From contig JAAYMS010000053.1 in assembly GCA_012521295.1 (NCBI GenBank), positions 1-48,911 on the forward strand: a DNA stretch of 48,911 nt. The letters run 5' to 3'. The notes beneath the pieces are model-generated. The model saw only the letters and a list, made by a program, of their open reading frames with translations, did not search any database and was not told where the DNA came from. The stretch comes from Bacillota bacterium. Its GTDB lineage: Bacteria > Bacillota > Limnochordia > Darwinibacteriales > Darwinibacteriaceae. This document shows, in pieces, positions 8,357 through 26,113 of the stretch. How positions within the stretch are numbered: the first letter of the stretch is position 1; each line of letters opens with the position of its first letter. The position numbers and the translations under genes were made by a program.

Positions 8357-9512
8357 TCTTCATATTCACATCGGAAAAACAGACAACGGGCAAGCAGTCA
8401 AGATACCAACTTCACCCGATTTGACCCTAAAAAACATCCTGCGCGCTGCCTATGAGATCAAAGGCCTGCAGCTGGTGGGCATCGTAGATGCTGCCTGTTT
8501 AGGAGTAATCTCCGACCTAGAAAAAGCTGCTGATTTAGGCATAATTGAGCCACTCAACGGCGGAGGCTTTTCCGATGGTCGAGTCGCACTTTTTCTAGGG
8601 AGTGAAGTCGAATTAGCCCATCCCAAAACAAGAAGGGCCGCTCACTTCATTGGGTTTTTTCCCACTATGAGTGACATCAAGGCCTATGCTAACGAGGCTC
8701 GAAAATTCCTGACCAATGCCTACCTCGGCACGCAGAAGACCCGCCTATCGCCCGATGACTGGCTTGATCTCGTCATTGATAATCACGGGGTTGCCATCGC
8801 CGCCCACGCTTTTACCCCTCACAAAGGAGTATACGGTAACTGTGTTTCCCGCCTCGAGGAGATGTTCTCTAAACCCGAGAAGTTCACAGCAATAGAGCTC
8901 GGATTGAGTGCAGACACTCAAATGGCCGAACTCATTCCGGATACACACTCATATAGTTATATCAGCAGTTCTGACGCCCATTCACTGCAGAAAATCGGGC
9001 GCGAATTCACCATCTATGAGCTTCCCGAACTGAGCTTCGCCTCCTGGGTGAGCGCTCTGCAGGGCGAGAATGGGCGGATTTTGGCGACACACGGCATGGA
9101 GCCACTGCTTGGAAAATACCATCGCAGCTTCTGCCCAGCCTGCAGACGGACCGCCCATGAGGAGGAACCTGTCCTTAGTTGCCCACAATGCGGGGGAGAT
9201 GTGGTGCTGGGTGTCTGGGACAGAATTCTATCCATTGCCGTTCCATCTGAGCACGCACCTGAACGTCCTCCTTATGTCTCGCACATTCCGTTAGAAATGA
9301 TTCCTGAAGTCGGTCGAGAAAAGAGGCAGAAGTTATACCGCACAGGAACAGAGATCGAAATTCTCTATAAGAAACCTCTTGATGAGTTGGCGGGAGTAGT
9401 AGGGCAGTCAGCTGCCCTGCAGATAATGAGAGCTAGGCAAGGAAAGTTGGGGCTAATTCCTGGTGGAGGAGGAAAATACGGGAAAGTGACGAAATGGCAG
9501 GAAAAGGGGTGA
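8340..9512 (+). CDS. Endonuclease Q-like protein (PHP-fold N-domain plus Cys4 zinc ribbon)
   Basis: N-terminal ADLHIHIGKT (PHP metal site), later SSSDAHS, and zinc ribbon CPACRR...CPQCGG. Overlaps DUF3866 by 17 nt. Confidence 0.7.
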   Translation: MRVAADLHIHIGKTDNGQAVKIPTSPDLTLKNILRAAYEIKGLQLVGIVDAACLGVISDLEKAADLGIIEPLNGGGFSDGRVALFLGSEVELAHPKTRRAAHFIGFFPTMSDIKAYANEARKFLTNAYLGTQKTRLSPDDWLDLVIDNHGVAIAAHAFTPHKGVYGNCVSRLEEMFSKPEKFTAIELGLSADTQMAELIPDTHSYSYISSSDAHSLQKIGREFTIYELPELSFASWVSALQGENGRILATHGMEPLLGKYHRSFCPACRRTAHEEEPVLSCPQCGGDVVLGVWDRILSIAVPSEHAPERPPYVSHIPLEMIPEVGREKRQKLYRTGTEIEILYKKPLDELAGVVGQSAALQIMRARQGKLGLIPGGGGKYGKVTKWQEKG

Positions 9513-15486: not shown

Positions 15487-15512
15487 AGGTAAAGTGTACA
15501 TTAGGCTCGAAA
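15487..15512 (+). promoter_or_regulatory. Possible sigma-H-type promoter for spoIIA operon
   Basis: AGGTAAA (15487-15493) and GAAA (15509-15512) resemble the sigma-H consensus RnAGGAwWW ... RnnGAAT, with about the right spacing. Each element has one mismatch. Confidence 0.25.
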
Positions 15513-15547
15513 GATTCAGTAAACTGTTGTTAAATGGAGGGAGAAAG

Positions 15548-15886
15548 GTGCAATTCAACATAACTGTGATTGGACAAGCCCTCATCGCCACGCTGGACGG
15601 CGATTTAGATCTACACACCTGCCCACAGTTTAAAGATGCCCTCACAAAGGCCCTCGACACGAACTCTAACGTCAAAAACTTAGTATTCGATGTGCAGAAC
15701 CTGACGTTCATAGACAGCTCGGGCCTCGGTGTAATCTTGGGGCGATATCGAGCTGTTCAGGCTCGGGGAGGCAAGCTCTTTTTTGTGAAAGCAAGCCCGC
15801 ATATGCAGCGAGTGTTGAAGCTGGCGGGTATGCACCGTATCTCAGAGTTTGTCGATTCTACAACAGAAGTCCTGAACCGAGCGTAG
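15548..15886 (+). CDS. spoIIAA: Anti-sigma-F factor antagonist SpoIIAA (STAS domain)
   Basis: STAS fold with the phosphorylatable Ser in FIDSSGLGV. GTG 15548 lies 6 nt after the RBS ggaggg. The ORF-track ATG 15458 lies inside the dacF terminator hairpin and is rejected. Confidence 0.9.
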   Translation: MQFNITVIGQALIATLDGDLDLHTCPQFKDALTKALDTNSNVKNLVFDVQNLTFIDSSGLGVILGRYRAVQARGGKLFFVKASPHMQRVLKLAGMHRISEFVDSTTEVLNRA

Positions 15887-15896
15887 GAGGGGAAAA

Positions 15897-16328
15897 ATGA
15901 TGAAAAACTGGATCGAATTAGTATTTCCCGGAACTTCGATTAATGTCAGTTTCGCTCGAGCTGTAGTTGCGCATTTCGCTGCTCAGCTTGACATTACCCT
16001 CGACGAGTTAGAGGACATTAAGGTTGCCGTATCAGAAGCGGTATCGAACTGTGTTGTCCATGGTTATCGGGAAAAAGAGGGCAACGTAGTAATTAGGGCG
16101 TCCTATGAAGAATCGCGCCTTGAAATTATAGTAGAAGATTTCGGACACGGTATCCCCGATATCGAAGTAGCGCAAGAAACAGGCTATACAACACTACCTG
16201 AAGAGCGGATGGGATTAGGGCTCACCTTCATGCGCGAGTACATGGATGAGCTGCATATTTACTCTGAAGTAGAAGTGGGAACCAAGGTGGTTATGGTTAA
16301 GCAGATTCCAGCGCGGCAAGCCGGGTGA
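15897..16328 (+). CDS. spoIIAB: Anti-sigma-F factor SpoIIAB (serine kinase, GHKL ATPase)
   Basis: SEAVSNCVVHGY (N-box), EDFGHGI (G1) and GLGLTFM (G2). 143 aa. Lies between spoIIAA and sigF. Confidence 0.9.
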   Translation: MMKNWIELVFPGTSINVSFARAVVAHFAAQLDITLDELEDIKVAVSEAVSNCVVHGYREKEGNVVIRASYEESRLEIIVEDFGHGIPDIEVAQETGYTTLPEERMGLGLTFMREYMDELHIYSEVEVGTKVVMVKQIPARQAG

Positions 16329-17050
16329 GAGATATGACCGGGCAACCATCGAAGGAAGAAACGCGCACATTGATCGGGCTGGCTCAAGCTGGTGACATGG
16401 AGGCCCGCTCGCAACTGGTCGAATCTAATCTCCCTCTGGTGGCCAGTATTGTTCGGCGCTTTCTCAGCCGCGGCTATGATTACGACGACCTGTTCCAGGT
16501 CGGATCGCTTGGGCTCTTAAAGGCGATACTTGATTTTGACCTCAGCTATGATGTACAGTTTTCTACGTATGCTGTACCGAAAATCATGGGCGAGATTAAA
16601 CGGTACATAAGAGAGGATGCACCGCTACACGTATCGCGTTCTCTCAAGGAATTAGCGGCCAAAGCCATCGCGGCTAAGGATCAGCTCGCCAGTGAGCTGG
16701 GGCGTAGCCCAACCATTTCAGAACTAGCACAGCATCTGGCAATATCTGTGGAAGAATTGGTTACCGCCCTTGATGCGGTTTCACCCGTCCATTCGCTGCA
16801 GGAAGTCGTGGCAGACAGTGACGATGAATCCGTCCACTTAGAGGACGTACTTCCAGCACCAGGTGGCGAAGGAAGATGGCAGCTTCGGACTGCCCTCGAA
16901 AGCCTAGATCCTTTCGAACGCCGCATCATTCTGCTGCGCTACTTCGCTGAGAAAAGTCAAACCGAAGTGGCTCAATCATTGGGTATTTCACAAGCTCAAG
17001 TCTCGCGCTTTGAAAAGCGAATTATTGCCCAACTGAGGCACCATCTCTAG
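16325..17050 (+). CDS. sigF: RNA polymerase sporulation sigma factor F
   Basis: Region 2 (DLFQVGSLGLLKAILDFD...FSTYAVPKIMGEIKRYIRE), region 3 and region 4 HTH (SQTEVAQSLGISQAQVSRFEKR). GTG overlaps the spoIIAB stop. ATG 16334 is an alternative start. Confidence 0.9.
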   Translation: MRDMTGQPSKEETRTLIGLAQAGDMEARSQLVESNLPLVASIVRRFLSRGYDYDDLFQVGSLGLLKAILDFDLSYDVQFSTYAVPKIMGEIKRYIREDAPLHVSRSLKELAAKAIAAKDQLASELGRSPTISELAQHLAISVEELVTALDAVSPVHSLQEVVADSDDESVHLEDVLPAPGGEGRWQLRTALESLDPFERRIILLRYFAEKSQTEVAQSLGISQAQVSRFEKRIIAQLRHHL

Positions 17051-17072
17051 CCCTAGATAAGGATTTGATTGC

Positions 17073-17888
17073 ATGAAAGCTGACTTACACATTCACACAA
17101 CCGAATCAGACGGAACGTGGAACCCACGGCAAATCGGCAGTGAAGCGCAAAAGCGCGGCCTGGACATAATTGCGGTTACGGACCACGACACCGTATCAGG
17201 AGTAATTCCTGCCCAAGAAGCAGCTCCACCAGGCGTGGAGCTTATTCCGGGTATTGAAATCAGTACAAGTATTGGTCACCGCGATGAAGTGCACATTCTT
17301 GGCTATTGGATCGATCCGCAGAGCCCTGCTCTCTTGGAGTACATTAAGAGAATGCACACTATCCGCGTAGATCGCGCCCAGCAGATTGTATCAAGATTGA
17401 ACCAAAATGGGATTAATATCACTTTCGCAGATGTGCTGAAATTTACCCCGAGGGAAATTGTAAGCCGCAGTCACATCGCTGCAGCTATGCTCCATGAAGG
17501 ATATGTGCAGACAAAAGTGCAGGCTTTCGATCAGTGGATCGGTACAGGAAAACCTGCATATGTGCCGCGCCCCAAAATGCTTCCAGAAGAAGCAGTTGAA
17601 CTAATACTCGCTGCAGGAGGAGTGCCCGTACTAGCTCATCCAGGTCTTATAAATGATCAGAGTATCATTCCAAAGATCGCCCGGCACAAGTTGGTAGGGA
17701 TGGAAGTAATCCATTCTTCCCATTCTGAAAGTCAGACGAAGTATTATGCGGAGCTAGCCAATGAACTCAAGCTTCTGCCAAGTGGGGGTTCAGACTGCCA
17801 TGGGCCGGGAGGCAAAGATTCTCTGTTCCTCGGCAAGTTCACAATACCAGGCAGCTGGGTTGAGAGCCTGAGGCAAATGCGGCAGTAG
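17073..17888 (+). CDS. PHP-domain metal-dependent phosphoesterase (TrpH/YciV-like)
   Basis: KADLHIHTTESDGT, AVTDHDT, VLAHP, GGSDCHG motifs. Confidence 0.8.
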   Translation: MKADLHIHTTESDGTWNPRQIGSEAQKRGLDIIAVTDHDTVSGVIPAQEAAPPGVELIPGIEISTSIGHRDEVHILGYWIDPQSPALLEYIKRMHTIRVDRAQQIVSRLNQNGINITFADVLKFTPREIVSRSHIAAAMLHEGYVQTKVQAFDQWIGTGKPAYVPRPKMLPEEAVELILAAGGVPVLAHPGLINDQSIIPKIARHKLVGMEVIHSSHSESQTKYYAELANELKLLPSGGSDCHGPGGKDSLFLGKFTIPGSWVESLRQMRQ

Positions 17889-18013
17889 AGCAGGAAGGAT
17901 TTCCTTGAAGGTTATAGCGCTCCAGTACCGAAATAGGCAAATGAACATGATGCACCAATACGCAGCACTATTCGCACTCTTATTTTGACGCATAATGAAG
18001 GAGCTGGAGCCAC

Positions 18014-18547
18014 ATGTCTAGTCTACGGGGGACCTGGGTGCAGCTGCGCCCAATAACAGCAGAAGACCTGCCTGAACTACTTCCTTGGAATCAAGATGAA
18101 GAGATCAATAGTTTAGCCGATGGAGATTATCCGGCTGAAATGGCCGCAGCCCAAGAATGGCTGACGCAAATCCTGAGCGATCGCTACCGAAAGTACTTCG
18201 TGATCGTTCTTAATGACGAAGTAATTGGCGATATTGAGCTTGATCACATCGCTTGGCGAAGCGGAGACGCGGAGATGCGCATCCGCATCGGTAGAAAGGA
18301 CTTGTGGAATCAGGGCCTCGGAACCGACGCGGTAGAAACCATGCTTAACTATGCCTTTAAGCGGCTAAACCTTACCCGCATCTATCTGCGCGTCTATGCT
18401 CATAATAAGCGCGCAATCCGCTGTTACACCAAGTCTGGCTTTGTAGGAGAAGGCAGGCTAAACAGCCGTTATGGTAAAATTCTCTTGATGCGGATTACTC
18501 GTTCTGAGTACCTCGACAAGGAAAATCCACAGACCACCGCCGTTTAA
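18014..18547 (+). CDS. GNAT-family N-acetyltransferase (RimJ/RimL-like)
   Basis: LRPITAEDLPELLPW..., RIGRKDLWNQGLGTDAVETMLNYAF (acetyl-CoA Q/RxxGxG/A motif), YAHNKRAIRCYTKSGF. Confidence 0.8.
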   Translation: MSSLRGTWVQLRPITAEDLPELLPWNQDEEINSLADGDYPAEMAAAQEWLTQILSDRYRKYFVIVLNDEVIGDIELDHIAWRSGDAEMRIRIGRKDLWNQGLGTDAVETMLNYAFKRLNLTRIYLRVYAHNKRAIRCYTKSGFVGEGRLNSRYGKILLMRITRSEYLDKENPQTTAV

Positions 18548-18552
18548 CTTGG

Positions 18553-18573
18553 GCCGCCTAGTGCGGCTTTTTT
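18553..18573 (+). terminator. Weak candidate terminator after GNAT gene
   Basis: 5-bp GC stem gccgc / gcggc with a 4-nt loop, followed by tttttt. The stem is short. Confidence 0.35.
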
Positions 18574-18712
18574 CTTTTCTCCCCCTAAATCCCTAGCTTA
18601 ATAGGCGAAGTACTGTTGTAGTTTTCTCTCGACCTGCTCATGAAGGCAAGGATTATAGACAGATATGTCGAACTGAGAAGAAGCTGTATGTTTAGTCAAT
18701 GGAGGGGTATGA

Positions 18713-19327
18713 ATGCTAAACGTAATTGTTCTTGGTGGTCCGGTAATGATCCCGCTGCTGTTGTGCTCAGTGTTTGCCCTGGCTATTTCTATCGAGCGAC
18801 TGTGGTATCTTCTGCGCGGTAGAATTGACACGGAAGATTTGATGGAAGACATCCGCTTGGCTTTGGAACAGGGTAAAGTACTTGAGGCAATGCAGATTGC
18901 TAAGCGCAGCAGAGGGCCCGTTGCCGCCGTCCTCGCCGCAGGCATCGCTTACTATGATCGTGGCAAAGAAGAAATCCAGACCCATATGGAAGTTGTGGGT
19001 AGGGAAGAGATCTTCAAGATGGAGCGCCGCTTAAGTGCCCTGGATACCATCATCACGATTGCACCACTGCTTGGTATTCTGGGAACTGTTACTGGAATTA
19101 TTGATAGTTTTAATGTCTTGGCAGGCCTTGAAGGCGTATCAAATCATGCCCTGCTCGCGATGGGAATTGCTGAGGCGCTGATTACAACTGCGGCAGGTCT
19201 CATTATTGCCATCCCGGCTTCAGCAGTCTATTCTTATCTAAACACACTCATTGACCGGAACACCGCAGCAATGTCGAAGCATTCCACAGAGCTGCTGGCC
19301 CTTCTTAAGGGAAGTGGTGAAGAATGA
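18713..19327 (+). CDS. MotA/TolQ/ExbB-family proton channel
   Basis: Three TM segments. Signature APLLGILGTVTGII and EALITTAAGLIIAIP. RBS ggagggg upstream. 204 aa. Confidence 0.85.
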   Translation: MLNVIVLGGPVMIPLLLCSVFALAISIERLWYLLRGRIDTEDLMEDIRLALEQGKVLEAMQIAKRSRGPVAAVLAAGIAYYDRGKEEIQTHMEVVGREEIFKMERRLSALDTIITIAPLLGILGTVTGIIDSFNVLAGLEGVSNHALLAMGIAEALITTAAGLIIAIPASAVYSYLNTLIDRNTAAMSKHSTELLALLKGSGEE

Positions 19328-19731
19328 TTAGATTCGAGCGTCCGCGAAGAAAATCAAGTGGCCCGAACATCGTTCCACTGATCGACGTCATTTTCTTCCT
19401 GCTGATATTTTTTATGGTCTTCTATAATGTCAGCAGTACACCGTTGGGGATGGACGTAGAACTTCCGCAGGCGGTTACTGGAGCGCCCCAGAACGGACAG
19501 ACATTTGAGGTCAGTGTTCGGGCCGATGGAAGCTTTTATGTTGCAGGCCGCAAGGTAAGCGGCCCAGAACTGCGCGCTCAAGTGCAGCAGAGCTTGCTCA
19601 GCAATCCGGACCTGTTTGTCATTGTCAAAGCGGACAAGCAGGCCCGTTATGAACATGTTGTGAACTGTCTTGATCACATCAGAGCAGTTGGAGGTCACAA
19701 GCTGGGCCTAGCAGTTGAACAGAGCTCATAG
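19324..19731 (+). CDS. ExbD/TolR-family biopolymer transport protein
   Basis: Single N-terminal TM with the conserved Asp (NIVPLIDVIFFLLIFFMV) and a periplasmic-type domain (VIVKADKQARYEHVVNCLDHIRAVG). ATGA overlap with the preceding gene. Confidence 0.85.
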   Translation: MIRFERPRRKSSGPNIVPLIDVIFFLLIFFMVFYNVSSTPLGMDVELPQAVTGAPQNGQTFEVSVRADGSFYVAGRKVSGPELRAQVQQSLLSNPDLFVIVKADKQARYEHVVNCLDHIRAVGGHKLGLAVEQSS

Positions 19732-19749
19732 TGGAAGGGAGGCTTAGGT

Positions 19750-20772
19750 GTGATTAATCCTTATGGAGAAGAACAGCAATTCAACCGTTTTCTACTGATT
19801 TCCATTGTTCTCCATGCAATTGTCTTCCTCACCTATCCCCAATGGAGCTCACTCTTTGAGTCGGATCTTCCGAGTTCTGGTGATGGAGGGGTGATTCAGG
19901 TTTTCAGTGTACAGAGCACCGTTCCATCCCTGCCGAGCTCTGTCGTTGATCCTGTATCGCAGACGACACGGCCGCGGGTAACCGAGCCACGGCCGCAGCC
20001 CGATCAGCCGCCGGTGCAAAACGCTGTTGCACAGCCACTTCCGCCAGAAGTGCCCGAGCCAGCAGCACCGCAGCCCAGCCCGACACCCGATCCGGTAATG
20101 GAGGAGCCTACGATTCCAGAAAGGATAGCCGAATCTGAGATTCCCACTCCGGAAGTGCCAAAGCCAGCTGAGCCACAGGCCGAAAGTAGGGCAGCGGCAA
20201 CGGTGGGCGAAGGTAAACTGCTCACAAGCGAATCAGGGCCAGAAGTTGTCCTACCAGATAGCAGTCTTGGCAGTGAGGAAGTTATTCCTCCTACGCAGCC
20301 TCATCCCCAACCGCAGGAACTTCCTGCGAGCGAAGCTAACGTGGGAGCAAGCGGTTCGGGTACCGGTATTCAGGGGGAAGACGATAGTGCGGGTACCTCG
20401 CAATCGGGTACCGGCGAGGCAGATGCTGCACCGCCGCCACCGCCACCACCGCCTACAGGCAGGGTTATCGGTGCGGCAGCTGGCAATTTCAGGGTAAATT
20501 ATCCGAAGAATGCTGAACACTTAGGTGTGCAGGGAACCGTCCAGCTTCAGGCCCTCATCAGTGCATCTGGAGAAGTCTTAGATATCACCTTGGTACGTTC
20601 TTCGGGACACACACTCTTGGATACCCATGCAGGACTTGTTGCGGCGAACTATCCGTGGCCGTCGGATGTGGATGTTTACTGGGCGGAAGTCTTTGTCGAT
20701 TTTAGATACCAAGACGACCAGTTCAGTGCGGACATCCGCTTTGGCGAGACAGGCCGGGTAACTGCACCATAA
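19750..20772 (+). CDS. TonB-family energy transducer (TM anchor, long Pro/Glu-rich spacer, TonB C-terminal domain)
   Basis: N-terminal TM carrying an SxxxH motif (LISIVLHAIV). About 190 aa of P/E/Q/S-rich spacer, including the PPPPPPPP run. C-terminal YPKNAEHLGVQGTVQLQALISASGEVLDITLVRSSGHTLLD matches the TonB_C pattern. GTG start after RBS gaagggagg. Confidence 0.8.
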   Translation: MINPYGEEQQFNRFLLISIVLHAIVFLTYPQWSSLFESDLPSSGDGGVIQVFSVQSTVPSLPSSVVDPVSQTTRPRVTEPRPQPDQPPVQNAVAQPLPPEVPEPAAPQPSPTPDPVMEEPTIPERIAESEIPTPEVPKPAEPQAESRAAATVGEGKLLTSESGPEVVLPDSSLGSEEVIPPTQPHPQPQELPASEANVGASGSGTGIQGEDDSAGTSQSGTGEADAAPPPPPPPPTGRVIGAAAGNFRVNYPKNAEHLGVQGTVQLQALISASGEVLDITLVRSSGHTLLDTHAGLVAANYPWPSDVDVYWAEVFVDFRYQDDQFSADIRFGETGRVTAP

Positions 20773-20788
20773 GGAGGGCGTGGAAAAC

Positions 20789-22831
20789 ATGGGATACCAT
20801 AAACGATGCTGGTTCTTAGTCGTGTTGGCTGCTGTGCTGATCCTGCCCGCCGCTGCTCTGGGGCAGGAGACCGGGTTTATCCAAGTCGCCAACGAGTACA
20901 TCCGCATTATAGTCAATACGTCTGAACATAATATGGGTCGCTTTTCTGTGATGACTACGGGCGGCGACCCTGACCGCCTCGAAGATAATAATCAGCACCT
21001 TATCTACGGTGGAGAGAATCCGTGGACGTCCTATACCACAGTGCGTATCGGTAACGAAAACTGGGTATTCGGCGGTTCAACCAACCGCCGTGCGGGGCAG
21101 GGTGGAAAGTACGGCGAGATGGTTTTGCCGCCCACCGTTGAGGACAACGCAATTAAGAGTGTCTGGCGCCTAGGGCCCATCGAGGTAACCCAAATTCTCA
21201 GCTTTGCCCGCAGCACCACAACGGGGCTAATGGACACTGCACGAATCGAGTATCAGCTGCACAACGCGGACAGTGTCTCGCATATGGTCGGCCTAAGAAT
21301 CATGCTCGATACCATGTTAGGAACCAACGATGGTGCACCCTTCCGTGTGAATGAGCAAGCACTCTTGAGTGATACAGTCTTCTATGCAAATCAAATGCCG
21401 GAGTTTTGGCAGGCTTTTGACTCTCTAGCAAACCCTCGTGTTATGTCCCAAGGTACCCTACGGGGTAGAGGTGTCTCAACGCCTGATCGGGTCTATTTCA
21501 CCAACTGGGGCAGTGTGGCAGATGATCTCTGGAACTTCGACTTTACGCCTGGCCGGGATTTTACGCGTCGGGGTGAGTTCGAATTAGACAGTGCTATTGC
21601 CCTCTTCTGGGATTCAGCTCCACTAGGCCCTAATGAGACACGCAGCTACGTGGCCCACTACGGCTTAGGTGGCGTGACCATAGCAGCTGGTGAACTCGTC
21701 TTAGGCGTAACATCGCCGGCGCAGGTAACAGCAGATAGCGATCGCACCGAAACATTCTCCGTGATCGCATATGTTCAAAACGCTGGTTCAGGCGAGGCTC
21801 GTGACGTAATAGCTGAGATCGAGCTTCCTCAAGGGTTAGAGCTTGTGACAGGCAGCCGGACCCGCAGACTAGGTAACTTGGATGTCGGCGAAACACAGCA
21901 AACAGGCTGGCAGGTTGCAGCAACCGGAAGCATAAGTGGCGATCTGACCTACCGAGTTTCAGTACGTGCAATCAACAGCGAGCCCAACAGCGTCAGCCGG
22001 GCTGTGTCTATTGTCAGTCCCGCTCGCCTGCGGATATTCCGTCTCAGTGGGCCACCAGCGCTTTCTGTTGTAAACGAGCTTTACAACCCGTCGCCCTTTA
22101 CCATCGAAGCCTTGATTCGCAATGAGGGAGGTACCGCTGCGCACAACGTACATGCCAGTATACTCCATCCCATCGGCCTACTTCTCGCACCCGGTGAGCG
22201 CCGAGACAAGTTCGTGGGAACTATTGATGCAGGTGCTGAAGCACGCCTCACATGGTCGCTGGTTCCGACAGGTGTGTCTGGGAGCCTACCATATTCGGTA
22301 TCAATTCTGCACGGTGGAGAACCAGCACTCCAGAACAGCTTTATCTTTGTGCCGGAGCTGCGGCCTAAGGTATGGATTGGCGAACCAGAGACATATGGCC
22401 GCACACAGATCGCACCAGGAGACTACTTCTCCATCTCCGTTTGGGCTACAAATGTTGCCAACCTAGCACGGGCAGAGCTCGATCTATCTTTTAACCCAGA
22501 TGTGGTCGAACTGGTTGGTAAGACACTAGACATTACGCAGGGAACATTATTCCTCGATGATACTGTGACACCACCAGCAAAGCTTTCATGGACCATGCCT
22601 GTCGTTGATAACGCTGCCGGTACGGTGCAGGGTATACGAGGAGACCGAAGCCCCAGCAAGCCCTTAACGAGAGCCTACGGAACGCTAGTAACCCTTCATT
22701 TCCGGGCAAAAGGGCCGGGAGATGCTCAGATTACCCTTGACAATGTGCGTATTTTTGATGGCGTGAATCAACCTTGTGAATTTGAGTTAATCCCACAGCG
22801 CAGCGTTACTGTGATGCAGGCGGTAAAATGA
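20789..22831 (+). CDS. Secreted multidomain protein: unassigned ~290-aa N-domain, two Ig-like (CARDB-like) repeats, C-terminal cohesin-like domain
   Basis: Signal peptide MGYHKRCWFLVVLAAVLILPAAALGQ. Two clearly homologous ~90-aa repeats (nt ~21752-22021 and ~22094-22357). The C-terminus (GDYFSISVWATNVANLARAELDLSFNPDVVELV...GTLVTLHFRAKGPGDAQITLDNVRIFD) fits the cohesin pattern. ATG 20789 (10 nt after aaggaggg) is preferred to the track GTG 20780. Confidence 0.7.
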   Translation: MGYHKRCWFLVVLAAVLILPAAALGQETGFIQVANEYIRIIVNTSEHNMGRFSVMTTGGDPDRLEDNNQHLIYGGENPWTSYTTVRIGNENWVFGGSTNRRAGQGGKYGEMVLPPTVEDNAIKSVWRLGPIEVTQILSFARSTTTGLMDTARIEYQLHNADSVSHMVGLRIMLDTMLGTNDGAPFRVNEQALLSDTVFYANQMPEFWQAFDSLANPRVMSQGTLRGRGVSTPDRVYFTNWGSVADDLWNFDFTPGRDFTRRGEFELDSAIALFWDSAPLGPNETRSYVAHYGLGGVTIAAGELVLGVTSPAQVTADSDRTETFSVIAYVQNAGSGEARDVIAEIELPQGLELVTGSRTRRLGNLDVGETQQTGWQVAATGSISGDLTYRVSVRAINSEPNSVSRAVSIVSPARLRIFRLSGPPALSVVNELYNPSPFTIEALIRNEGGTAAHNVHASILHPIGLLLAPGERRDKFVGTIDAGAEARLTWSLVPTGVSGSLPYSVSILHGGEPALQNSFIFVPELRPKVWIGEPETYGRTQIAPGDYFSISVWATNVANLARAELDLSFNPDVVELVGKTLDITQGTLFLDDTVTPPAKLSWTMPVVDNAAGTVQGIRGDRSPSKPLTRAYGTLVTLHFRAKGPGDAQITLDNVRIFDGVNQPCEFELIPQRSVTVMQAVK

Positions 22832-22845
22832 AGGAGGCGGATTAT

Positions 22846-24150
22846 ATGAATAAGAGAGTAATGCTTGGCTTTGTTCTTGCTGTTCTGCTGTTCACATTAG
22901 GAGCAGCTCCTGTCGCAGCTAACTTAAGCGACGTGCCCAGTGATCATTGGGCGTATCACGCGGTGGTGACACTTGTCAACAAAGGGTACTTAGCCGTCTA
23001 CGAAGACGGTACGTTCCAGGGGTCCAGACCGGTAGACCGCTACACGCTGGCGGTAACCCTAGCCCGCATCCTGGATGATATTGAGGCCGGGCGAGTTCAG
23101 GGTTCGATGGAAGATCTGACCCTAATTCGAGAACTCACCACTGAGCTTACCGAAGAGCTCGTCGCATGGTACTCAGATCGGGCAGCTCTAGAAGACAAGG
23201 TAAGCAATGCCGAACGCATGCTTGTAATTACCGAGGATCGCTTGAACCGGGTTGTGACAGCGCAAACTCAGCTGCAGGACGAAGTAGCTGCGATTAAGAA
23301 TGAACTGATGCAGCAGATGCGTGAAGAAGCTGCACTGCTCGAAACAGCTACTGCAGAGCAGGCCACAACCCTAAGCGCGCAGCAGGCTTTACTGGCCCGC
23401 CAGGGCGAGATCATTGGCGAACACAGCGACGTGCTGTCCGAGCATGAAATGCGCATCAACGAGCAGATGGCGCAACTACGGGAGCAGCAGGTACGCCTCG
23501 GTGAGCTTATGACAGCTCTGATGGAGATCGAGAATAGTCTCATGACACACAAGGCAGACATCAATGCTCTGCAGAACTGGGCCGGAGAGAAGAGTGCTGT
23601 ACTGGCTGCCCTACAGCATCAAGATGCGGCACTCAATGAAGAGGTTGCTCAGATTAGAACGGAACTGGCCAGCCTGACACAGGAGACTGATGAACGATTA
23701 AGTGAGCTTTCTGCTATGGTATCTGAATCTGATGCAGAGCACGAAAACACCGCGGCTCAAATCGCTGCGCTGCAAGCCCGCTCCGTTGAGATCGAAAAGG
23801 ATCTGCAGAACCTGGCCGTACTGCTCCAGCGCGAGACACAGCGTCGTGGCGAAATGAGCACAGCTATTGACCAAATTCGTGCTGAAATGGCATCCTTAGA
23901 AACACAGATCGGCCTCTCAGAGGAAGAAATGGCTTCGCTGCGCTCGCAGATCAGCGATCAGGTCCGTCTCGAGATGAATGCTGCCCTAATCCGAGAGCAG
24001 CGTCTCGAGCGGCAGATAGACGAGCTTCAAGAAGAGTTTGCGAACTACAAACAGACAACCGAAGCTCAGCTGAAATCCAACAAGACTATGGCCACTATCG
24101 GTATTGTGGTGGGAGCCATTGGTGTCGTTGTGGGGTTGATAAATAAATAG
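22846..24150 (+). CDS. SLH-domain / long coiled-coil / C-terminal TM protein (Omp-alpha-like envelope tether)
   Basis: Signal peptide MNKRVMLGFVLAVLLFTLGAAPVAA. One SLH motif (SDVPSDHWAYHAVVTLVNKGYLAVYEDGTFQGSRPVDRYTLAVTLARIL). About 300 residues rich in E/Q/L/A heptad-like sequence. C-terminal hydrophobic MATIGIVVGAIGVVVGLINK. ATG 22846 follows RBS aaggagg, and the track ATG 22828 overlaps that RBS. Confidence 0.75.
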   Translation: MNKRVMLGFVLAVLLFTLGAAPVAANLSDVPSDHWAYHAVVTLVNKGYLAVYEDGTFQGSRPVDRYTLAVTLARILDDIEAGRVQGSMEDLTLIRELTTELTEELVAWYSDRAALEDKVSNAERMLVITEDRLNRVVTAQTQLQDEVAAIKNELMQQMREEAALLETATAEQATTLSAQQALLARQGEIIGEHSDVLSEHEMRINEQMAQLREQQVRLGELMTALMEIENSLMTHKADINALQNWAGEKSAVLAALQHQDAALNEEVAQIRTELASLTQETDERLSELSAMVSESDAEHENTAAQIAALQARSVEIEKDLQNLAVLLQRETQRRGEMSTAIDQIRAEMASLETQIGLSEEEMASLRSQISDQVRLEMNAALIREQRLERQIDELQEEFANYKQTTEAQLKSNKTMATIGIVVGAIGVVVGLINK

Positions 24151-24187
24151 CCCCGGAGGAGCAAACTAATACCGAACGCATATTTTC

Positions 24188-24218
24188 GAGACAGCCTGCG
24201 GGCTGTCTCTTTTTGTTT
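24188..24218 (+). terminator. Rho-independent terminator ending the exbB-to-SLH unit
   Basis: Perfect 9-bp stem gagacagcc / ggctgtctc, tgcg loop, then tttttgttt. Confidence 0.8.
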
Positions 24219-24220
24219 GG

Positions 24221-24250
24221 GCATAAACAGCCTCCTGCAAAGCTATACTA
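24221..24250 (+). promoter_or_regulatory. Candidate forespore (sigma-G/sigma-F type) promoter of spoVA operon
   Basis: GCATA (24221-24225), 18 nt, TATACTA (24244-24250). This resembles the sigma-G consensus GnATR ... CATnnTA with one mismatch. It lies ~29 nt upstream of the spoVAC ATG. Confidence 0.45.
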
Positions 24251-24279
24251 ATGACAGCTTTAACTGGGAGGCAGCGTAC

Positions 24280-24720
24280 ATGAAACCACAAGAGTACCAG
24301 CAGCTGGTAAGAGAAAACCAACCACCAAGGAGAACCTGGAGAAATGTTATCCTGGCATTCGTGGTGGGTGGTAGTTTCTCGCTTATAGGGCAGATCGTTC
24401 TTGATTTCGTCAGCGGCGTGGAAAGAACCACTGACGAGGCTTCGGCAATTACCCTGGCCATCATGATCCTTATAGGTGCGGTGCTGACGGGGTTGGGTAT
24501 CTATGACGAAATTGCCGAGATTGGTGGAGCGGGCGCCGCAGTCCCCATCACTGGCTTTTCGAACACTGTTACTGCAGCAGCCATGGAGTTTCGCCGCGAA
24601 GGTTTTATTCTTGGTATGGGTGCCAAGATGTTTGTGATCGCGGGCCCTGTCTTGGTCTACGGCATCTTGTCTGGATTTTTGGTTGCACTGATCAAATCAG
24701 TAGTACTGGGGTATTTCTAA
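24280..24720 (+). CDS. spoVAC: Stage V sporulation protein AC
   Basis: Four-TM protein with AGAAVPITGFSN and GPVLVYGI patterns. ATG 24280 follows RBS gggagg. The track TTG 24217 would include the terminator tail and promoter. Confidence 0.9.
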   Translation: MKPQEYQQLVRENQPPRRTWRNVILAFVVGGSFSLIGQIVLDFVSGVERTTDEASAITLAIMILIGAVLTGLGIYDEIAEIGGAGAAVPITGFSNTVTAAAMEFRREGFILGMGAKMFVIAGPVLVYGILSGFLVALIKSVVLGYF

Positions 24721-24733
24721 GGGGGGAAGCAGA

Positions 24734-25741
24734 TTGGCTACCAGAAGGGTGGGAGGCCAGACCATTTTCTTCGAAGACCTACCCAAGTTGGTGTCTGCCC
24801 ACACTATCGTCGGGAAAAACGAGGGGCAGGGGCCATACAGCGAATACTTCGATGAAATCCTCGAGGACGATTTATTGGGACAACCCACCGCAGAAAAGGC
24901 TGAACGCCAGATTCTACAACAAGCAGTCGAGCAAGCTCTCAGCAAGTACGGACTGGTTCCCCAAGATATTCAGTACTACGTCAGCGGAGATCTCCTGAAT
25001 CAAGTGATTTCAGCGGTCTTCAGTGCCCGCAACCTGGCGATTCCATTTCTGGGCATCTTCAGCGCCTGCGGTACTTTCGCTCAGAGCTTAGGGCTGGGAA
25101 GCATACTACTTCACGGAGGATTCGCCAGCAAAGTCTTGGTTGCTACTTCGAGCCACTACCAAACAGCAGAGCGCCAATACCGCTATCCGATAGAATTGAA
25201 CATCCAGCATCGGCCGACGAACCAGCACACTGTGACAGGAGCGGGGGCCTGCGTTTTATCGGCCGATGGAGAAGGCCCAAAGATCACACACGTTACCTTT
25301 GGCAGGATTGTCGATATGGGCCTCAAGGACCCAAATGATATGGGTAGTGCCATGGCTCCTGCTGCCTTCGATACACTTGAGAAGCATCTGAAGGACATAG
25401 AGTGTTCCCCTGATCACTACGACTTGATCCTAACCGGCGACCTGGGGCGGCAGGGCTTTAAGATGCTGAAGATTATCGCAGAGAAGAAGGGGCTGGCGCT
25501 GGGCACTAACCTGCAGGATGGGGGAGTTCTCATTTACGGCGAAGATCCTAAGTACGGTGCAGGGGCGAGCGGTGCAGCATGTTCAGCGGTCATGACGCTC
25601 GGCTATGGACTCTCTTTACTAAGAGAAGGAAAAATCCGGAGACTTCTCTTAGTTGGTACTGGTGCCCTCCTAAACCAACTAACTGTACAACAAGGTGACT
25701 CAATACCTACCATTGCGCACGCAGTTGCTATCGAGGCGTAA
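24734..25741 (+). CDS. spoVAD: Stage V sporulation protein AD (thiolase-like fold)
   Basis: 335 aa with SGDLLNQ, FLGIFSACGT and TGAGA patterns. Lies between spoVAC and spoVAE. Confidence 0.9.
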   Translation: MATRRVGGQTIFFEDLPKLVSAHTIVGKNEGQGPYSEYFDEILEDDLLGQPTAEKAERQILQQAVEQALSKYGLVPQDIQYYVSGDLLNQVISAVFSARNLAIPFLGIFSACGTFAQSLGLGSILLHGGFASKVLVATSSHYQTAERQYRYPIELNIQHRPTNQHTVTGAGACVLSADGEGPKITHVTFGRIVDMGLKDPNDMGSAMAPAAFDTLEKHLKDIECSPDHYDLILTGDLGRQGFKMLKIIAEKKGLALGTNLQDGGVLIYGEDPKYGAGASGAACSAVMTLGYGLSLLREGKIRRLLLVGTGALLNQLTVQQGDSIPTIAHAVAIEA

Positions 25742-25762
25742 GGAGCGAATAGAGGTGATGCC

Positions 25763-26113
25763 ATGCAGTACCTGATTGCCTTTGTCGTTGGAGGACTGAT
25801 CTGTGCAGCAGCTCAACTAGTCCTAGAGTATACCAAGCTGGCTCCAGTGCATGTACTGGTAGGGTTAACTGTCTTAGGCGCCATTTCTGCAGGAATCGGG
25901 ATTTATGAACCCTTTTTGCAGTTCGCAGGAGCGGGTGCGCTGGTCCCAGTGAGCGGGTTCGGCAGCTCTATCACACGAGGGATGCTTTCGGAAATAAAGC
26001 GGCTCGGATGGGAAGGATTATTTACAGGAGCTTTTGAGATAACGGGCCTCGGACTTGCAGCAGCAGTAGTTTTCGGCAGCTTAATGGCTATCGCGTCAAG
26101 GCCTCGCGATTGA
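25763..26113 (+). CDS. spoVAE: Stage V sporulation protein AE (AEB-type)
   Basis: 116-aa membrane protein, paralogous to SpoVAC (AGAGALVPVSGFGSSI). Confidence 0.9.
   Translation: MQYLIAFVVGGLICAAAQLVLEYTKLAPVHVLVGLTVLGAISAGIGIYEPFLQFAGAGALVPVSGFGSSITRGMLSEIKRLGWEGLFTGAFEITGLGLAAAVVFGSLMAIASRPRD

What the first reader, a model, noticed from the sequence alone, without database searches (positions are those of the whole stretch)
18548..24218. ExbB-ExbD-TonB motor co-operonic with a secreted cohesin protein and an Omp-alpha-like tether, with no barrel receptor nearby
Five same-strand genes form one unit: exbB/tolQ, exbD/tolR, tonB-like, a cohesin-domain exoprotein and an SLH/coiled-coil/TM protein. 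They are separated by a 4-nt overlap and gaps of only 14-18 nt. A 165-nt upstream gap with a weak terminator at 18553-18573 and a strong terminator at 24188-24218 bracket the unit. The motor looks functional rather than decayed. ExbD keeps its TM Asp (PLIDVIFF), ExbB keeps APLLGILGTVTG, and TonB keeps an SxxxH TM motif (SIVLH) and a TonB_C-like fold. Canonical Ton systems energise outer-membrane TonB-dependent beta-barrels, and none is encoded in this window. The co-transcribed partners are instead an orphan cohesin protein and a wall-binding rod. This suggests a PMF-driven, envelope-spanning apparatus of unknown function. One option is a diderm or sheathed spore-former using a non-barrel TonB client. 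Another is a wall-associated system in a monoderm. I know of no characterised system with this composition.
Basis: partly seen in the sequence, partly recalled or inferred. Interest (0 to 1): 0.85.

Follow-up and report, generated by a model that had tools for sequence, protein, structure and literature searches.

The report
Ton-like motor operon with wall tether
A proton-driven ExbB-ExbD-TonB motor is always encoded next to a secreted sugar-binding-like protein and a wall-binding coiled-coil anchor in three groups of double-membraned bacteria, and the one checked genome of them has no usual TonB-dependent receptors, so this looks like an undescribed envelope machine.

Summary
Five same-strand genes at 18713-24150 encode ExbB, ExbD, a TonB-family protein, a signal-peptide protein with a weak cohesin match, and an SLH/coiled-coil/C-terminal-TM protein. 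Terminator-like hairpins lie on both sides.

- **Host:** homologue names place the window in Limnochordia, a spore-forming Bacillota class with an outer membrane. The monoderm option is very unlikely.
- **Conservation:** the block keeps the same order in all 80 species-level genomes examined, with zero counter-examples. These include cultured Halanaerobiales. The same block occurs in Candidatus Margulisiibacteriota, where the flanks are unrelated.
- **No barrel receptor:** in Halothermothrix orenii this block is the published "orphan" ExbB/ExbD/TonB set, for which no TonB-dependent receptor was found.
- **Gene 4:** its most conserved part is not the cohesin domain but an N-terminal beta-supersandwich of carbohydrate-binding type.
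- **Gene 5:** it resembles an OmpM/SlpA stalk without the barrel, as in Thermotoga Omp-alpha.
- **Promoter:** a conserved SigH-type motif precedes exbB in Limnochordia.

I found no description of this module in the searchable literature. My best reading is a proton-driven system acting on its co-encoded partners and on wall-membrane tethering, loosely parallel to Tol-Pal. This function is inferred, not shown.

The parts
18551..18579 (+). Terminator-like hairpin plus T-run that ends the upstream GNAT acetyltransferase gene and sets the 5' boundary of the unit
   Evidence: 7-pair stem, 5 GC pairs, then TTTTCTTTTC. The hairpin is conserved in the alignment of upstream regions.
18646..18673 (+). 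Conserved SigH-type promoter-like motif GCAAGGATTA-N11-GTCGAAC, 64 nt before the exbB ATG
   Evidence: Alignment of 13 upstream regions. The exact pattern GCAAGGAWW-N10-14-GTCGAA occurs once per locus, always upstream of exbB, in 24 loci. A relaxed pattern is present in 53 of 72 loci. The geometry matches the mapped C. difficile SigH promoters AGGATTA-N11-GTAGAAT in PMC7438776 Table 3. The same class of motif lies upstream of spoIIAA.
18701..18707 (+). Ribosome-binding site GGAGGGG of exbB
   Evidence: Sequence. It is invariant in the upstream alignment.
18713..19327 (+). ExbB/TolQ-family proton-channel subunit (204 aa)
   Evidence: Pfam MotA_ExbB 7.7e-30. NCBIfam tolQ 7e-31 and exbB 8.5e-20, both far below the equivalog cut-offs. 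PDB TolQ 1e-12 and ExbB about 1e-11.
19324..19731 (+). ExbD/TolR-family subunit (135 aa) with the transmembrane Asp (PLIDVIFF)
   Evidence: Pfam ExbD 1e-28. NCBIfam tolR 2e-20 and exbD 1.8e-15, both below cut-offs. The 4-nt overlap with exbB is shown.
19750..20772 (+). TonB-family force transducer (340 aa): N-terminal TM with S-x3-H, Pro-rich linker, TonB_C domain
   Evidence: Pfam TonB_C 1.4e-10. NCBIfam tonB_Cterm 34.9 bits, above the 27.1 cut-off. PDB TonB C-terminal domains at about 1e-3. The same architecture appears in the orthologues inspected from Limnochordia, Halanaerobiales and Margulisiibacteriota; the L095 variant lacks TonB_C.
20789..22831 (+). Exported four-domain beta protein (680 aa): signal peptide, N-terminal beta-supersandwich (residues about 30-295, the most conserved part), two CARDB/NEW3 Ig-like domains, and a C-terminal cohesin-like sandwich. 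An alternative GTG start lies at 20780.
   Evidence: Pfam. Alignment invariants are concentrated in the N-domain. AlphaFold2: pLDDT 84.9 for the full length and 86.9 with pTM 0.89 for the N-domain. Foldseek on the N-domain matches N-domains of GH94 phosphorylases, cyclic glucan synthase and GH116, the YidC P1 domain and galactose mutarotase-like proteins, at TM 0.45-0.59 and E from 1e-7 to 3e-5. A type II cohesin dyad appears among the full-length hits.
22828..24150 (+). Omp-alpha-like tether (440 aa): signal peptide, one OmpM/SlpA-type SLH domain, about 320 aa of proline-free coiled coil, and a C-terminal TM helix. An alternative start lies at 22846.
   Evidence: Pfam SLH 22.9 bits, above 20.8. 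NCBIfam por_somb matches the N-terminus at 3e-11. PDB: D. radiodurans SlpA 5e-13 and V. parvula OmpM from 2e-8 to 1e-7, over residues 24-128. The architecture is conserved with lengths from 159 to 1433 aa. Both ends are conserved and the middle is variable.
24188..24218 (+). Strong intrinsic-terminator-like hairpin (9 pairs, 6 GC) plus T-run; 3' boundary of the unit
   Evidence: sequence. It lies between the stop at 24150 and the probable spoVAC start at 24280.

Best explanation
This is a conserved five-gene envelope operon of outer-membrane-bearing Terrabacteria (Limnochordia, Halanaerobiales, Candidatus Margulisiibacteriota). The parts are:
- **Motor:** ExbB and ExbD form a proton-driven motor in the inner membrane.
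- **Transducer:** the TonB-family protein reaches into the periplasm and transmits force.
- **Gene 4:** an exported protein whose conserved N-terminal domain has a carbohydrate-binding-type beta-supersandwich fold.
- **Gene 5:** a probably trimeric rod that binds the cell wall through an OmpM-type SLH domain and sits in a membrane through a C-terminal helix.

Instead of opening barrel transporters, the motor most likely acts on these two co-encoded proteins. My best guess at the job is proton-motive-force-dependent control of wall-to-membrane tethering, or of envelope architecture. That would be a functional counterpart of TolQRA-TolB-Pal built from SLH parts. In Limnochordia it appears to be switched on by SigH at the transition to stationary phase or sporulation.

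What is shown: the gene content, the conservation of the block, the domain folds, and the promoter motif. What is inferred: the partners of TonB, which membrane holds the helix, the ligand of the beta-supersandwich, and the physiological role.

The confidence of 0.4 refers to the functional reading. That the five genes form one conserved module is far more certain, about 0.9.
For: **Domains.**

**Conservation of the block.**
- The same order and tight spacing hold in 80 species-level genomes with no counter-example.
- Flanks vary within Limnochordia.
- Halanaerobiales carry the block with different flanks: spmAB and PHP upstream, a SleB-like hydrolase downstream.
- Seven Margulisiibacteriota-type loci have unrelated flanks: LOG upstream, holB-rpsU-lptFG downstream. 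The taxon is assigned from names on homologous proteins.
- A fourth context is seen in L095.

**No barrel client.**
- The H. orenii genome paper found one ExbB/ExbD/TonB set and no TonB-dependent receptor.
- That set is this block.
- The 2025 survey detected Ton systems among diderm Firmicutes only in Negativicutes, and Tol-Pal only in Gracilicutes.

**Parallel to Tol-Pal.**
- The gene order is motor, transducer, periplasmic protein, wall-binding anchor, which mirrors tolQ-tolR-tolA-tolB-pal.
- ExbB and ExbD score slightly better against the TolQ and TolR models than against ExbB and ExbD models.

**Gene 4.** It has a signal peptide, no lipobox and a strongly conserved N-domain.

**Gene 5.** Both ends are conserved and the middle is variable.

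**Promoter.** A conserved SigH-type motif lies upstream of exbB.
Against: - No interaction between TonB and either partner was tested.
- No Ton-box or TolA-box-like free strand was found. The conserved N-terminal strand NEYIRIxVN is part of the fold in the model.
- None of the periplasmic parts is homologous to TolB or Pal.
- The coiled coil varies from about 70 to about 1300 residues, which does not fit a fixed-width spacer. Its length does not track TonB linker length (Spearman -0.23, p = 0.12).
- A C-terminal helix after a Sec signal would by default stay in the inner membrane, so an outer-membrane tether is not assured.
- The module was seen in only three lineages plus one unplaced contig. 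I could not establish whether Negativicutes, Cyanobacteria, Deinococcota or Thermotogota have it, so a general Terrabacterial role is unproven.
- Absence of TonB-dependent receptors in Limnochordia and Margulisiibacteriota rests on literature statements or was not checked. The window's own genome was not scanned.
Confidence: 0.4

Rival explanations
1. It is a nutrient-uptake Ton system with an unrecognised outer-membrane partner encoded elsewhere, for example an OmpM/Som-type porin or a divergent barrel. The beta-supersandwich protein would serve as a periplasmic or surface glycan-capturing accessory, and the SLH protein as a scaffold.
For: - The third gene is a genuine TonB-family protein whose C-domain matches TonB rather than TolA domain III.
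- The N-domain of gene 4 has a carbohydrate-binding-type fold.
- The N-terminus of gene 5 matches the NCBIfam 'iron uptake porin' SomB family.
- The authors of the H. orenii paper allowed that the receptors might be too divergent to detect.
Against: - No barrel gene is linked to the block in any of about 95 loci.
- No TonB-dependent receptor was found in H. orenii.
- Strict linkage to the SLH/coiled-coil gene across phyla is not expected for an uptake system.
- The operon shows no substrate-specific regulation or ABC importer, and in Limnochordia it has a SigH-type promoter.
Confidence: 0.25
2. It is a sporulation or stationary-phase envelope device of diderm spore-formers. The module would be expressed from a SigH promoter and would help remodel or tether membranes and wall at asymmetric division, engulfment or germination. 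One version: it holds the inner-membrane-derived outer spore membrane to the wall through a helix-anchored SLH rod.
For: - The SigH-type motif is conserved in 53 of 72 Limnochordia loci, and the same class of motif lies upstream of spoIIAA.
- In Limnochordia the block sits between the spoIIA (sigF) and spoVA operons.
- In Halanaerobiales it sits between spoVS-spmA-spmB and a SleB/CwlJ-type hydrolase.
- A helical anchor is compatible with an inner-membrane-derived outer spore membrane, as described for diderm Firmicutes in PMC13018214.
Against: - The same five-gene block occurs in Margulisiibacteriota with housekeeping flanks and no sporulation genes in the 14-16 kb of flanking sequence shown.
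- Several Limnochordia lineages have metabolic genes as flanks.
- The SigH motif was not found in Halanaerobiales.
- In C. difficile the SigH regulon also includes cell-division, translation and metabolic genes, so SigH control does not by itself imply a role in sporulation.
Confidence: 0.15
3. It is a cell-surface scaffold of the cellulosome-anchor type, as several database names suggest. The cohesin domain would dock dockerin-bearing proteins and the SLH protein would fix the assembly to the wall. The motor genes would be only loosely associated.
For: - Database names such as 'cellulosome anchor protein' and 'cohesin domain-containing protein' are attached to homologues.
- The Pfam Cohesin match passes the cut-off in Halonatronum.
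- A type II cohesin dyad appears among the fold matches.
Against: - The cohesin match is below the cut-off in the window.
- The cohesin-like domain is less conserved than the N-domain.
- No dockerin was detected in any of the five window proteins.
- Linkage to the motor is invariant.
- The SLH domain is of the OmpM/SlpA stalk type, which lies under the outer membrane in its solved relatives. It is not a triple-SLH surface-anchor module.
Confidence: 0.06
4. The adjacency is a chance or relic arrangement: a decaying Ton system next to unrelated wall genes.
For: None beyond the lack of experimental data. The closest relatives share the whole neighbourhood, so their synteny alone is uninformative.
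Against: - The block survives complete turnover of its flanks across two phyla.
- All catalytic and motif residues are kept.
- Start/stop overlaps between neighbouring genes recur in the window and in Margulisiibacteriota loci.
Confidence: 0.02

Closest known systems
Ton system (ExbB-ExbD-TonB energising TonB-dependent outer-membrane transporters)
   Same: ExbB and ExbD domains with the conserved Asp and pore motifs. TonB has the S-x3-H transmembrane helix, a Pro-rich linker and a TonB_C domain.
   Different: No barrel receptor is linked in any locus, and none was reported in H. orenii. Two exported non-barrel proteins are invariably co-encoded. NCBIfam equivalog cut-offs for exbB and exbD are missed by a wide margin.
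Tol-Pal system (tolQ-tolR-tolA-tolB-pal-cpoB) of Gracilicutes
   Same: The logic and gene order match: motor, transducer, soluble periplasmic beta protein, wall-binding membrane-anchored protein. Gene 5 has a coiled coil, as CpoB does (coiled-coil content of CpoB is from my own knowledge). The motor subunits score slightly better against TolQ and TolR models.
   Different: The transducer C-domain is TonB-like, not TolA domain III. The periplasmic protein is a supersandwich plus Ig domains, not a TolB propeller. The wall binder uses SLH and a C-terminal helix, not an OmpA-like domain on a lipoprotein. Tol-Pal is reported only in Gracilicutes.
Omp-alpha of Thermotoga (SLH, about 45-50 nm coiled coil, C-terminal hydrophobic anchor)
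   Same: Gene 5 has the same three-part architecture and a similar rod length, with about 320 helical residues.
   Different: Omp-alpha genes lie alone or next to a beta-barrel gene, not downstream of a Ton motor. Homology beyond the SLH domain was not tested.
OmpM/SlpA superfamily (outer-membrane tether of diderm Terrabacteria)
   Same: The N-terminal single SLH domain and the start of the coiled-coil stalk are homologous (SlpA 5e-13; OmpM from 2e-8 to 1e-7). The aromatic residues around HWAY and the DRY motif are retained (compared with the description read).
   Different: There is no C-terminal beta-barrel. It is replaced by a single TM helix, and the stalk is several times longer.
Other non-canonical 5:2-motor force transducers (vWA-domain transducers; Agl-Glt gliding motor)
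   Same: A TolQR/ExbBD-type motor is coupled to non-transporter periplasmic partners.
   Different: The partners are different. Here the transducer keeps a TonB_C domain, except in the L095 variant.

Membership tests
Ton system | ExbB (MotA_ExbB domain) and ExbD with the transmembrane Asp | tested here: met
   Pfam 7.7e-30 and 1e-28. The PLIDVIFF motif is in the sequence.
Ton system | TonB: N-terminal TM with S-x3-H, Pro-rich linker, TonB_C domain | tested here: met
   Pfam TonB_C 1.4e-10. NCBIfam tonB_Cterm 34.9 bits, above 27.1. Orthologues share the architecture.
Ton system | A TonB-dependent barrel transporter (Plug plus TonB_dep_Rec) as client | tested here: not met
   None in the window and none in the related loci whose genes were inspected. 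H. orenii, which carries the same block, has none according to PMC2626281. The window's whole genome could not be scanned.
Ton system | Scores above the NCBIfam equivalog cut-offs for exbB and exbD | tested here: not met
   exbB 71.5 bits against 206. exbD 57.2 against 216 and 51.9 against 153.
Tol-Pal system | TolQ and TolR equivalogs | tested here: not met
   These are the best-scoring models, but tolQ scores 107.6 against 221 and tolR 73.7 against 127.3.
Tol-Pal system | TolA with its own C-terminal domain III | tested here: not met
   The C-domain matches TonB_C. Only the N-terminal TM region gives a weak tolA_full hit, 22.8 bits against 59.45.
Tol-Pal system | TolB beta-propeller periplasmic protein | tested here: not met
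   The AlphaFold2 model shows a supersandwich, two Ig-like domains and a cohesin-like domain. There is no TolB or WD40 Pfam hit.
Tol-Pal system | Pal: outer-membrane lipoprotein with an OmpA-like wall-binding domain | tested here: not met
   Gene 5 has an SLH domain, no lipobox Cys and a C-terminal TM helix.
OmpM/SlpA superfamily | N-terminal SLH domain followed by a coiled-coil stalk | tested here: met
   phmmer against the PDB: 7zgx 5e-13, and 8bys, 8bz2 and 8bym from 2e-8 to 1e-7, covering residues 24-128.
OmpM/SlpA superfamily | C-terminal outer-membrane beta-barrel | tested here: not met
   After the SLH domain the sequence is proline-free coiled coil and ends in one hydrophobic helix. 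There is no porin match beyond the N-terminus.
Omp-alpha (Thermotogae) | SLH, long coiled coil and a C-terminal hydrophobic segment | tested here: met
   The architecture is seen in the window and in the orthologues inspected. The description of Omp-alpha comes from PMC10160955.
Omp-alpha (Thermotogae) | Sequence homology to Thermotoga Omp-alpha outside the SLH domain, and localisation in the outer membrane | not tested
   No Thermotoga sequence was compared. Localisation needs fractionation.
Cellulosome anchoring scaffoldin | A bona fide cohesin domain | tested here: inconclusive
   22.9 bits against a cut-off of 24.1 in the window. 27.1 bits in Halonatronum. A cohesin dyad appears among the fold hits.
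Cellulosome anchoring scaffoldin | Cohesin and SLH domains on one polypeptide, with dockerin-bearing partners | tested here: not met
   The two domains are on separate proteins. No dockerin hit was found in the operon.
Zorya and other MotAB-type defence systems | ZorA/ZorB-type proteins with their effector genes | tested here: not met
   PADLOC gave only a 14.5-bit ZorA hit (E = 0.003) and coiled-coil noise.

The most novel reading that the evidence does not exclude
The five-gene block is the Terrabacterial counterpart of Tol-Pal. It would be an ancient proton-driven system in which a TonB-type arm, a glycan-binding periplasmic protein and an SLH/coiled-coil anchor remodel or relocate wall-to-outer-membrane tethers during division, and in spore-formers at the onset of sporulation. 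It would have been present in the diderm ancestor of Bacillota and in the Cyanobacteria-related Margulisiibacteriota. It would then have been lost together with the outer membrane in the monoderm lineages.
Probability: 0.3. Interest if true: 0.9.

Novelty: new variant of a known kind. Interest (0 to 1): 0.78.

Why it matters
Two open questions become testable.

1. What does the 'orphan' ExbB-ExbD-TonB set do in diderm Firmicutes that lack TonB-dependent receptors? This puzzle was noted for H. orenii in 2009. The comparative data now name two obligatory partner proteins.
2. How do outer-membrane-bearing Terrabacteria, which lack Tol-Pal, Lpp and Pal, couple inner-membrane energy to the outer envelope? 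A motor wired to an OmpM-type SLH module is the first concrete candidate.

The module would also add a marker gene set for studies of the transition from two membranes to one in Bacillota. It adds a new partner class to the family of 5:2 proton motors. Several hosts are cultured, among them Halothermothrix, Halanaerobium, Orenia, Natroniella and Limnochorda, so experiments are feasible.

Tried and rejected
1. **Ton box or TolA box on gene 4.** I looked for a free strand at the mature N-terminus (QETGFIQVANEYIRIIVN). The conserved NEYIRIxVN strand is an integral, confidently modelled strand of the N-domain. The residues before it are not conserved. I dropped the idea.
2. **Matching rulers.** I tested whether TonB periplasmic length and SLH/coiled-coil length co-vary. 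Over 46 loci Spearman rho is -0.23 with p = 0.12, so there is no support.
3. **Full-length fold search of gene 4.** It was dominated by multi-Ig proteins such as integrins and ciliary proteins and was uninformative. I repeated it with the N-domain alone.
4. **Defence system.** PADLOC was negative.
5. **Leader RNA or repeats.** There is no Rfam match and no meaningful repeat in 18300-24400.
6. **ECF-sigma reading of the upstream motif.** I rejected this because the usual AAC element of the -35 region is absent (that consensus is from my own knowledge). The geometry instead equals mapped SigH promoters.
7. **Supplements of the 2025 force-transducer paper.** They hold no entry for Limnochorda, Halanaerobium, Halothermothrix, Acetohalobium or Veillonella. 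The key 2020 paper on diderm Firmicutes is not held in the library.
8. **Negativicutes.** I tried to learn from cluster names whether they carry the module. The names were too sparse to decide.
9. **Whole-genome scan.** I could not scan the window's genome for TonB-dependent receptors, BamA or LpxC with the tools available.

Full report
**1. The observation**

- exbB runs from 18713 to 19327.
- exbD runs from 19324 to 19731 and overlaps exbB by 4 nt.
- The tonB-like gene runs from 19750 to 20772.
- The 'cohesin' gene starts at 20780 or 20789 and ends at 22831.
- The SLH/coiled-coil/TM gene starts at 22828 or 22846 and ends at 24150.

A database protein that is 100% identical to gene 4 has 680 aa, so ATG 20789 is the likely start. 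A 165-nt gap precedes exbB. Terminator-like hairpins with T-runs lie at 18551-18569 and 24188-24209.

Pfam confirms most of the domain calls.
- MotA_ExbB scores 7.7e-30, ExbD 1e-28 and TonB_C 1.4e-10.
- SLH scores 22.9 bits against a cut-off of 20.8.
- Cohesin scores 22.9 bits against a cut-off of 24.1, so it is marginal here. It passes in the Halonatronum orthologue at 27.1 bits.

Nothing in the window resembles a TonB-dependent barrel. There is no Rfam element and no repeat in the region.

**2. The organism**

The named homologues of gene 4 come from Limnochordia MAGs, 'Peptococcaceae bacterium 1109' and Candidatus Darwinibacter acetoxidans. The best genome match is 92% identical.

The window also carries spoIIM, dacF, spoIIAA-spoIIAB-sigF, spoVAC-D-E and a chemotaxis/flagellar block. 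Limnochordia are spore-forming Bacillota with an outer membrane. This is shown by electron microscopy of cultured members and by outer-membrane marker genes in all 46 genomes analysed by Taib et al., as cited in PMC11456536.

The monoderm option is very unlikely.

**3. Is the block a unit?**

I scanned one genome per species with an alignment of gene 4. This found 361 relatives, and the best 80 loci were fetched.

I then ran BLAST of the window's proteins against all ORFs of these loci.
- exbB, exbD, the cohesin protein and the SLH protein appear in the same order and on the same strand in 63 loci.
- A TonB-like ORF sits between exbD and the cohesin gene even where BLAST misses it.
- Of the other 17 loci, 16 are cut by contig ends.
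- The remaining one, L062, has the SLH gene below the BLAST threshold.
- There is no counter-example.

The closest relatives share the whole neighbourhood, which alone proves little. In more distant Limnochordia the flanks are replaced by metabolic genes.

Cultured Halanaerobiales carry the block with other flanks: spoVS-spmA-spmB-PHP upstream and a SleB/CwlJ-type hydrolase downstream. The genera include Orenia, Halonatronum, Frackibacter, Halanaerobium, Halothermothrix and Natroniella.

Remote representatives of the gene 4 family led to a third lineage, Candidatus Margulisiibacteriota, including Marinamargulisbacteria. Seven loci of this type show LOG, then ExbB-ExbD-TonB (166-205 aa), the cohesin-like protein (623-685 aa) and the SLH/coiled-coil/TM protein (159-180 aa), then holB-rpsU-lptFG.

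A fourth, taxonomically unplaced context is L095. It keeps ExbB, ExbD, the cohesin-like protein and the SLH protein. Its third gene is a TM helix plus a disordered linker without a TonB_C domain.

Start/stop overlaps between neighbouring genes recur in the window and in Margulisiibacteriota loci. The five genes are therefore a conserved functional module.

**4. The missing barrel**

The H. orenii genome paper states that ExbB, ExbD and a putative TonB lie together. [quoted passage not shown]

In the complete H. orenii genome that set is this block, followed by the 660-aa cohesin-like gene and a 255-aa SLH gene.

A 2025 survey of periplasmic force transducers detected Ton systems among diderm Firmicutes only in Negativicutes. 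It found Tol-Pal only in Gracilicutes (PMC12204202).

I could not scan the window's own genome, so for Limnochordia this point rests on the literature. For Margulisiibacteriota it was not checked at all.

**5. The parts**

*ExbB and ExbD.* They are short and score slightly higher against TolQ and TolR models than against ExbB and ExbD models. All scores are far below the equivalog cut-offs. They are best called a separate branch of the family.

*The third protein.* It has the S-x3-H transmembrane helix, a Pro/Glu/Lys-rich linker and a TonB_C domain in all three named lineages.

*Gene 4.* It has a signal peptide and no lipobox.
- The full-length AlphaFold2 model has pLDDT 84.9.
- It shows four beta domains.
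- The N-terminal 270 residues hold most of the invariant positions, including DTMLGxNDGAPF and PGRDFTRxGEFELDSA.
- Modelled alone, this domain reaches pLDDT 86.9 and pTM 0.89.
- It is a beta-supersandwich.
- Its best fold matches are the N-domains of GH94 phosphorylases, cyclic glucan synthase and GH116, the YidC P1 domain and galactose-mutarotase-like proteins, at TM 0.45-0.59 and E from 1e-7 to 3e-5.
- From this I infer a glycan-binding role.
- The domain has no Pfam model.
- It belongs to a large family: 2554 clusters at E <= 0.001 and 501 clusters at E <= 1e-30.
- That family also contains stand-alone paralogues and an archaeal PEF-CTERM surface protein.

*Gene 5.* It has a signal peptide and one SLH domain, homologous to the stalk region of D. 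radiodurans SlpA and V. parvula OmpM. About 320 proline-free helical residues follow, and the protein ends in a Gly/Ala/Val-rich C-terminal helix.
- This is the architecture of Thermotoga Omp-alpha.
- Across orthologues the SLH end and the last 40 residues before the helix are conserved, while the middle is variable.
- Total length ranges from 159 to 1433 aa.

**6. Regulation**

The region upstream of exbB holds a motif conserved across Limnochordia: (A)AGGAWWW-N11-12-GTCGAAH, 64-89 nt before the start codon.
- It is seen in an alignment of 13 loci.
- The exact pattern hits once per locus in 24 loci.
- A relaxed pattern is found in 53 of 72 loci, including lineages whose flanks differ.

In the window it lies at 18646-18673. 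A general form of the pattern occurs three times in the window, against 0.56 expected by chance.

The geometry equals experimentally assigned SigH promoters of C. difficile, such as AGGATTA-N11-GTAGAAT, with a GCGAAT variant (PMC7438776 Table 3).

The spoIIAA gene is SigH-dependent in C. difficile. In these loci it carries the same class of motif, in 34 of 47 cases.

I therefore infer SigH-dependent transcription in Limnochordia. No convincing match was found in Halanaerobiales.

**7. How it most likely works**

What is shown: a conserved operon for an intact proton motor, a TonB-type arm and two exported proteins. One of these binds the wall through an OmpM-type SLH module. The operon occurs in diderm lineages, and for one of them a lack of barrel clients is reported.

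What I infer: the TonB arm acts on the co-encoded partners. The system couples proton motive force to wall-membrane tethering or envelope architecture. The order motor, transducer, periplasmic protein, wall-binding anchor parallels tolQRA-tolB-pal. No periplasmic part is homologous to TolB or Pal, so this is an analogy of design, not family membership.

Weak points:
- No contact was tested, and no Ton-box-like free strand was found.
- The rod length is highly variable and does not track TonB length.
- It is unknown which membrane holds the helix.

Rivals:
- An uptake system with an unrecognised outer-membrane partner (0.25).
- A sporulation or stationary-phase device (0.15). The SigH motif and the sporulation-gene flanks in two Firmicute classes favour it. 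The Margulisiibacteriota loci, which have no sporulation genes nearby, argue against it as the core function.
- A cohesin-dockerin surface scaffold (0.06).
- Chance adjacency (0.02).

**8. Novelty**

Full-text searches for the combination of ExbB/ExbD with SLH, coiled coil or cohesin returned nothing relevant. The recent papers on force transducers, OmpM and diderm Firmicutes do not mention it.

The orphan TonB of H. orenii was noted in 2009, but its two partner genes were not.

I class the module as a new variant of a known kind, namely 5:2 proton motors with a TonB/TolA-type transducer. Its partner set has not been described.

Noticed in passing
window 15487-15515: Upstream of spoIIAA lies AGGTAAA-N12-CTCGAAA, a SigH-type promoter-like motif of the same class as the one before exbB. 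It is conserved in 34 of 47 related loci.
   Followed up: partly
window 24210-24282: Between the strong terminator and spoVAC lies GCATA-N18-TATACTA. By the SigF/SigG consensus as I remember it, this resembles a forespore promoter. The ORF list starts spoVAC at TTG 24217, inside the terminator tail. The real start is probably ATG 24280, which gives 146 aa as in L003.
   Followed up: partly
window 15548-26113; L094 3176-11379: In this lineage the spoIIA (sigF) and spoVA operons are separated by PHP, GNAT and the five-gene block. In Bacillus subtilis they are adjacent (from my own knowledge). In Halanaerobiales the block lies between spoVS-spmA-spmB-PHP and a SleB/CwlJ-type hydrolase. A PHP-domain gene upstream is shared by both classes.
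   Followed up: partly
L050 11978-16276; L071 12165-15308; L084 12071-14737: The SLH/coiled-coil/TM protein varies greatly in length. It has 159-180 aa in Margulisiibacteriota, about 220-255 aa in Halanaerobiales, 360-520 aa in most Limnochordia, and 882, 1039 and 1433 aa in three Limnochordia lineages. The SLH end and the C-terminal helix are kept throughout.
   Followed up: partly
L095 5194-10789: A variant block from an unplaced, GC-rich contig. The third gene (256 aa) has a TM helix and a long disordered Pro/Glu/Lys linker, but it ends in a Cys-rich tail instead of a TonB_C domain. The cohesin-like protein is 937 aa and appears to end in a second cohesin-like module (judged from the sequence, not scanned).
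   Followed up: partly
P0261 (Methanolobus sp., 444 aa); L087 8001-9716: The N-terminal supersandwich domain of gene 4 also occurs outside the block. One case is an archaeal protein named as PEF-CTERM sorting-domain-containing, 41% identical over the domain. Another is a 571-aa paralogue with no ExbBD nearby, on a contig that also carries a SpoIVB-type peptidase gene (Peptidase_S55). The domain has no Pfam family.
   Followed up: no
L056; L093 (P0181): Contigs that carry the block are labelled 'Betaproteobacteria bacterium' (L056) and 'Thermoproteota archaeon' (P0181). Their gene content matches the Limnochordia-type and Margulisiibacteriota-type loci respectively, so the bins are probably mislabelled.
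   Followed up: no
window 7274-9512: A DUF3866 gene (360 aa, 9e-115) is followed, with a 17-nt overlap, by a 390-aa ORF that has no Pfam match at E <= 1e-5.
   Followed up: no
window 24135-24165 versus L001 13345-13377: The near-identical contig L001 gives gene 5 a different C-terminal end (…GLIMSPGGAN) from the window (…GLINK). This implies a small indel or sequencing difference just before the stop codon.
   Followed up: no
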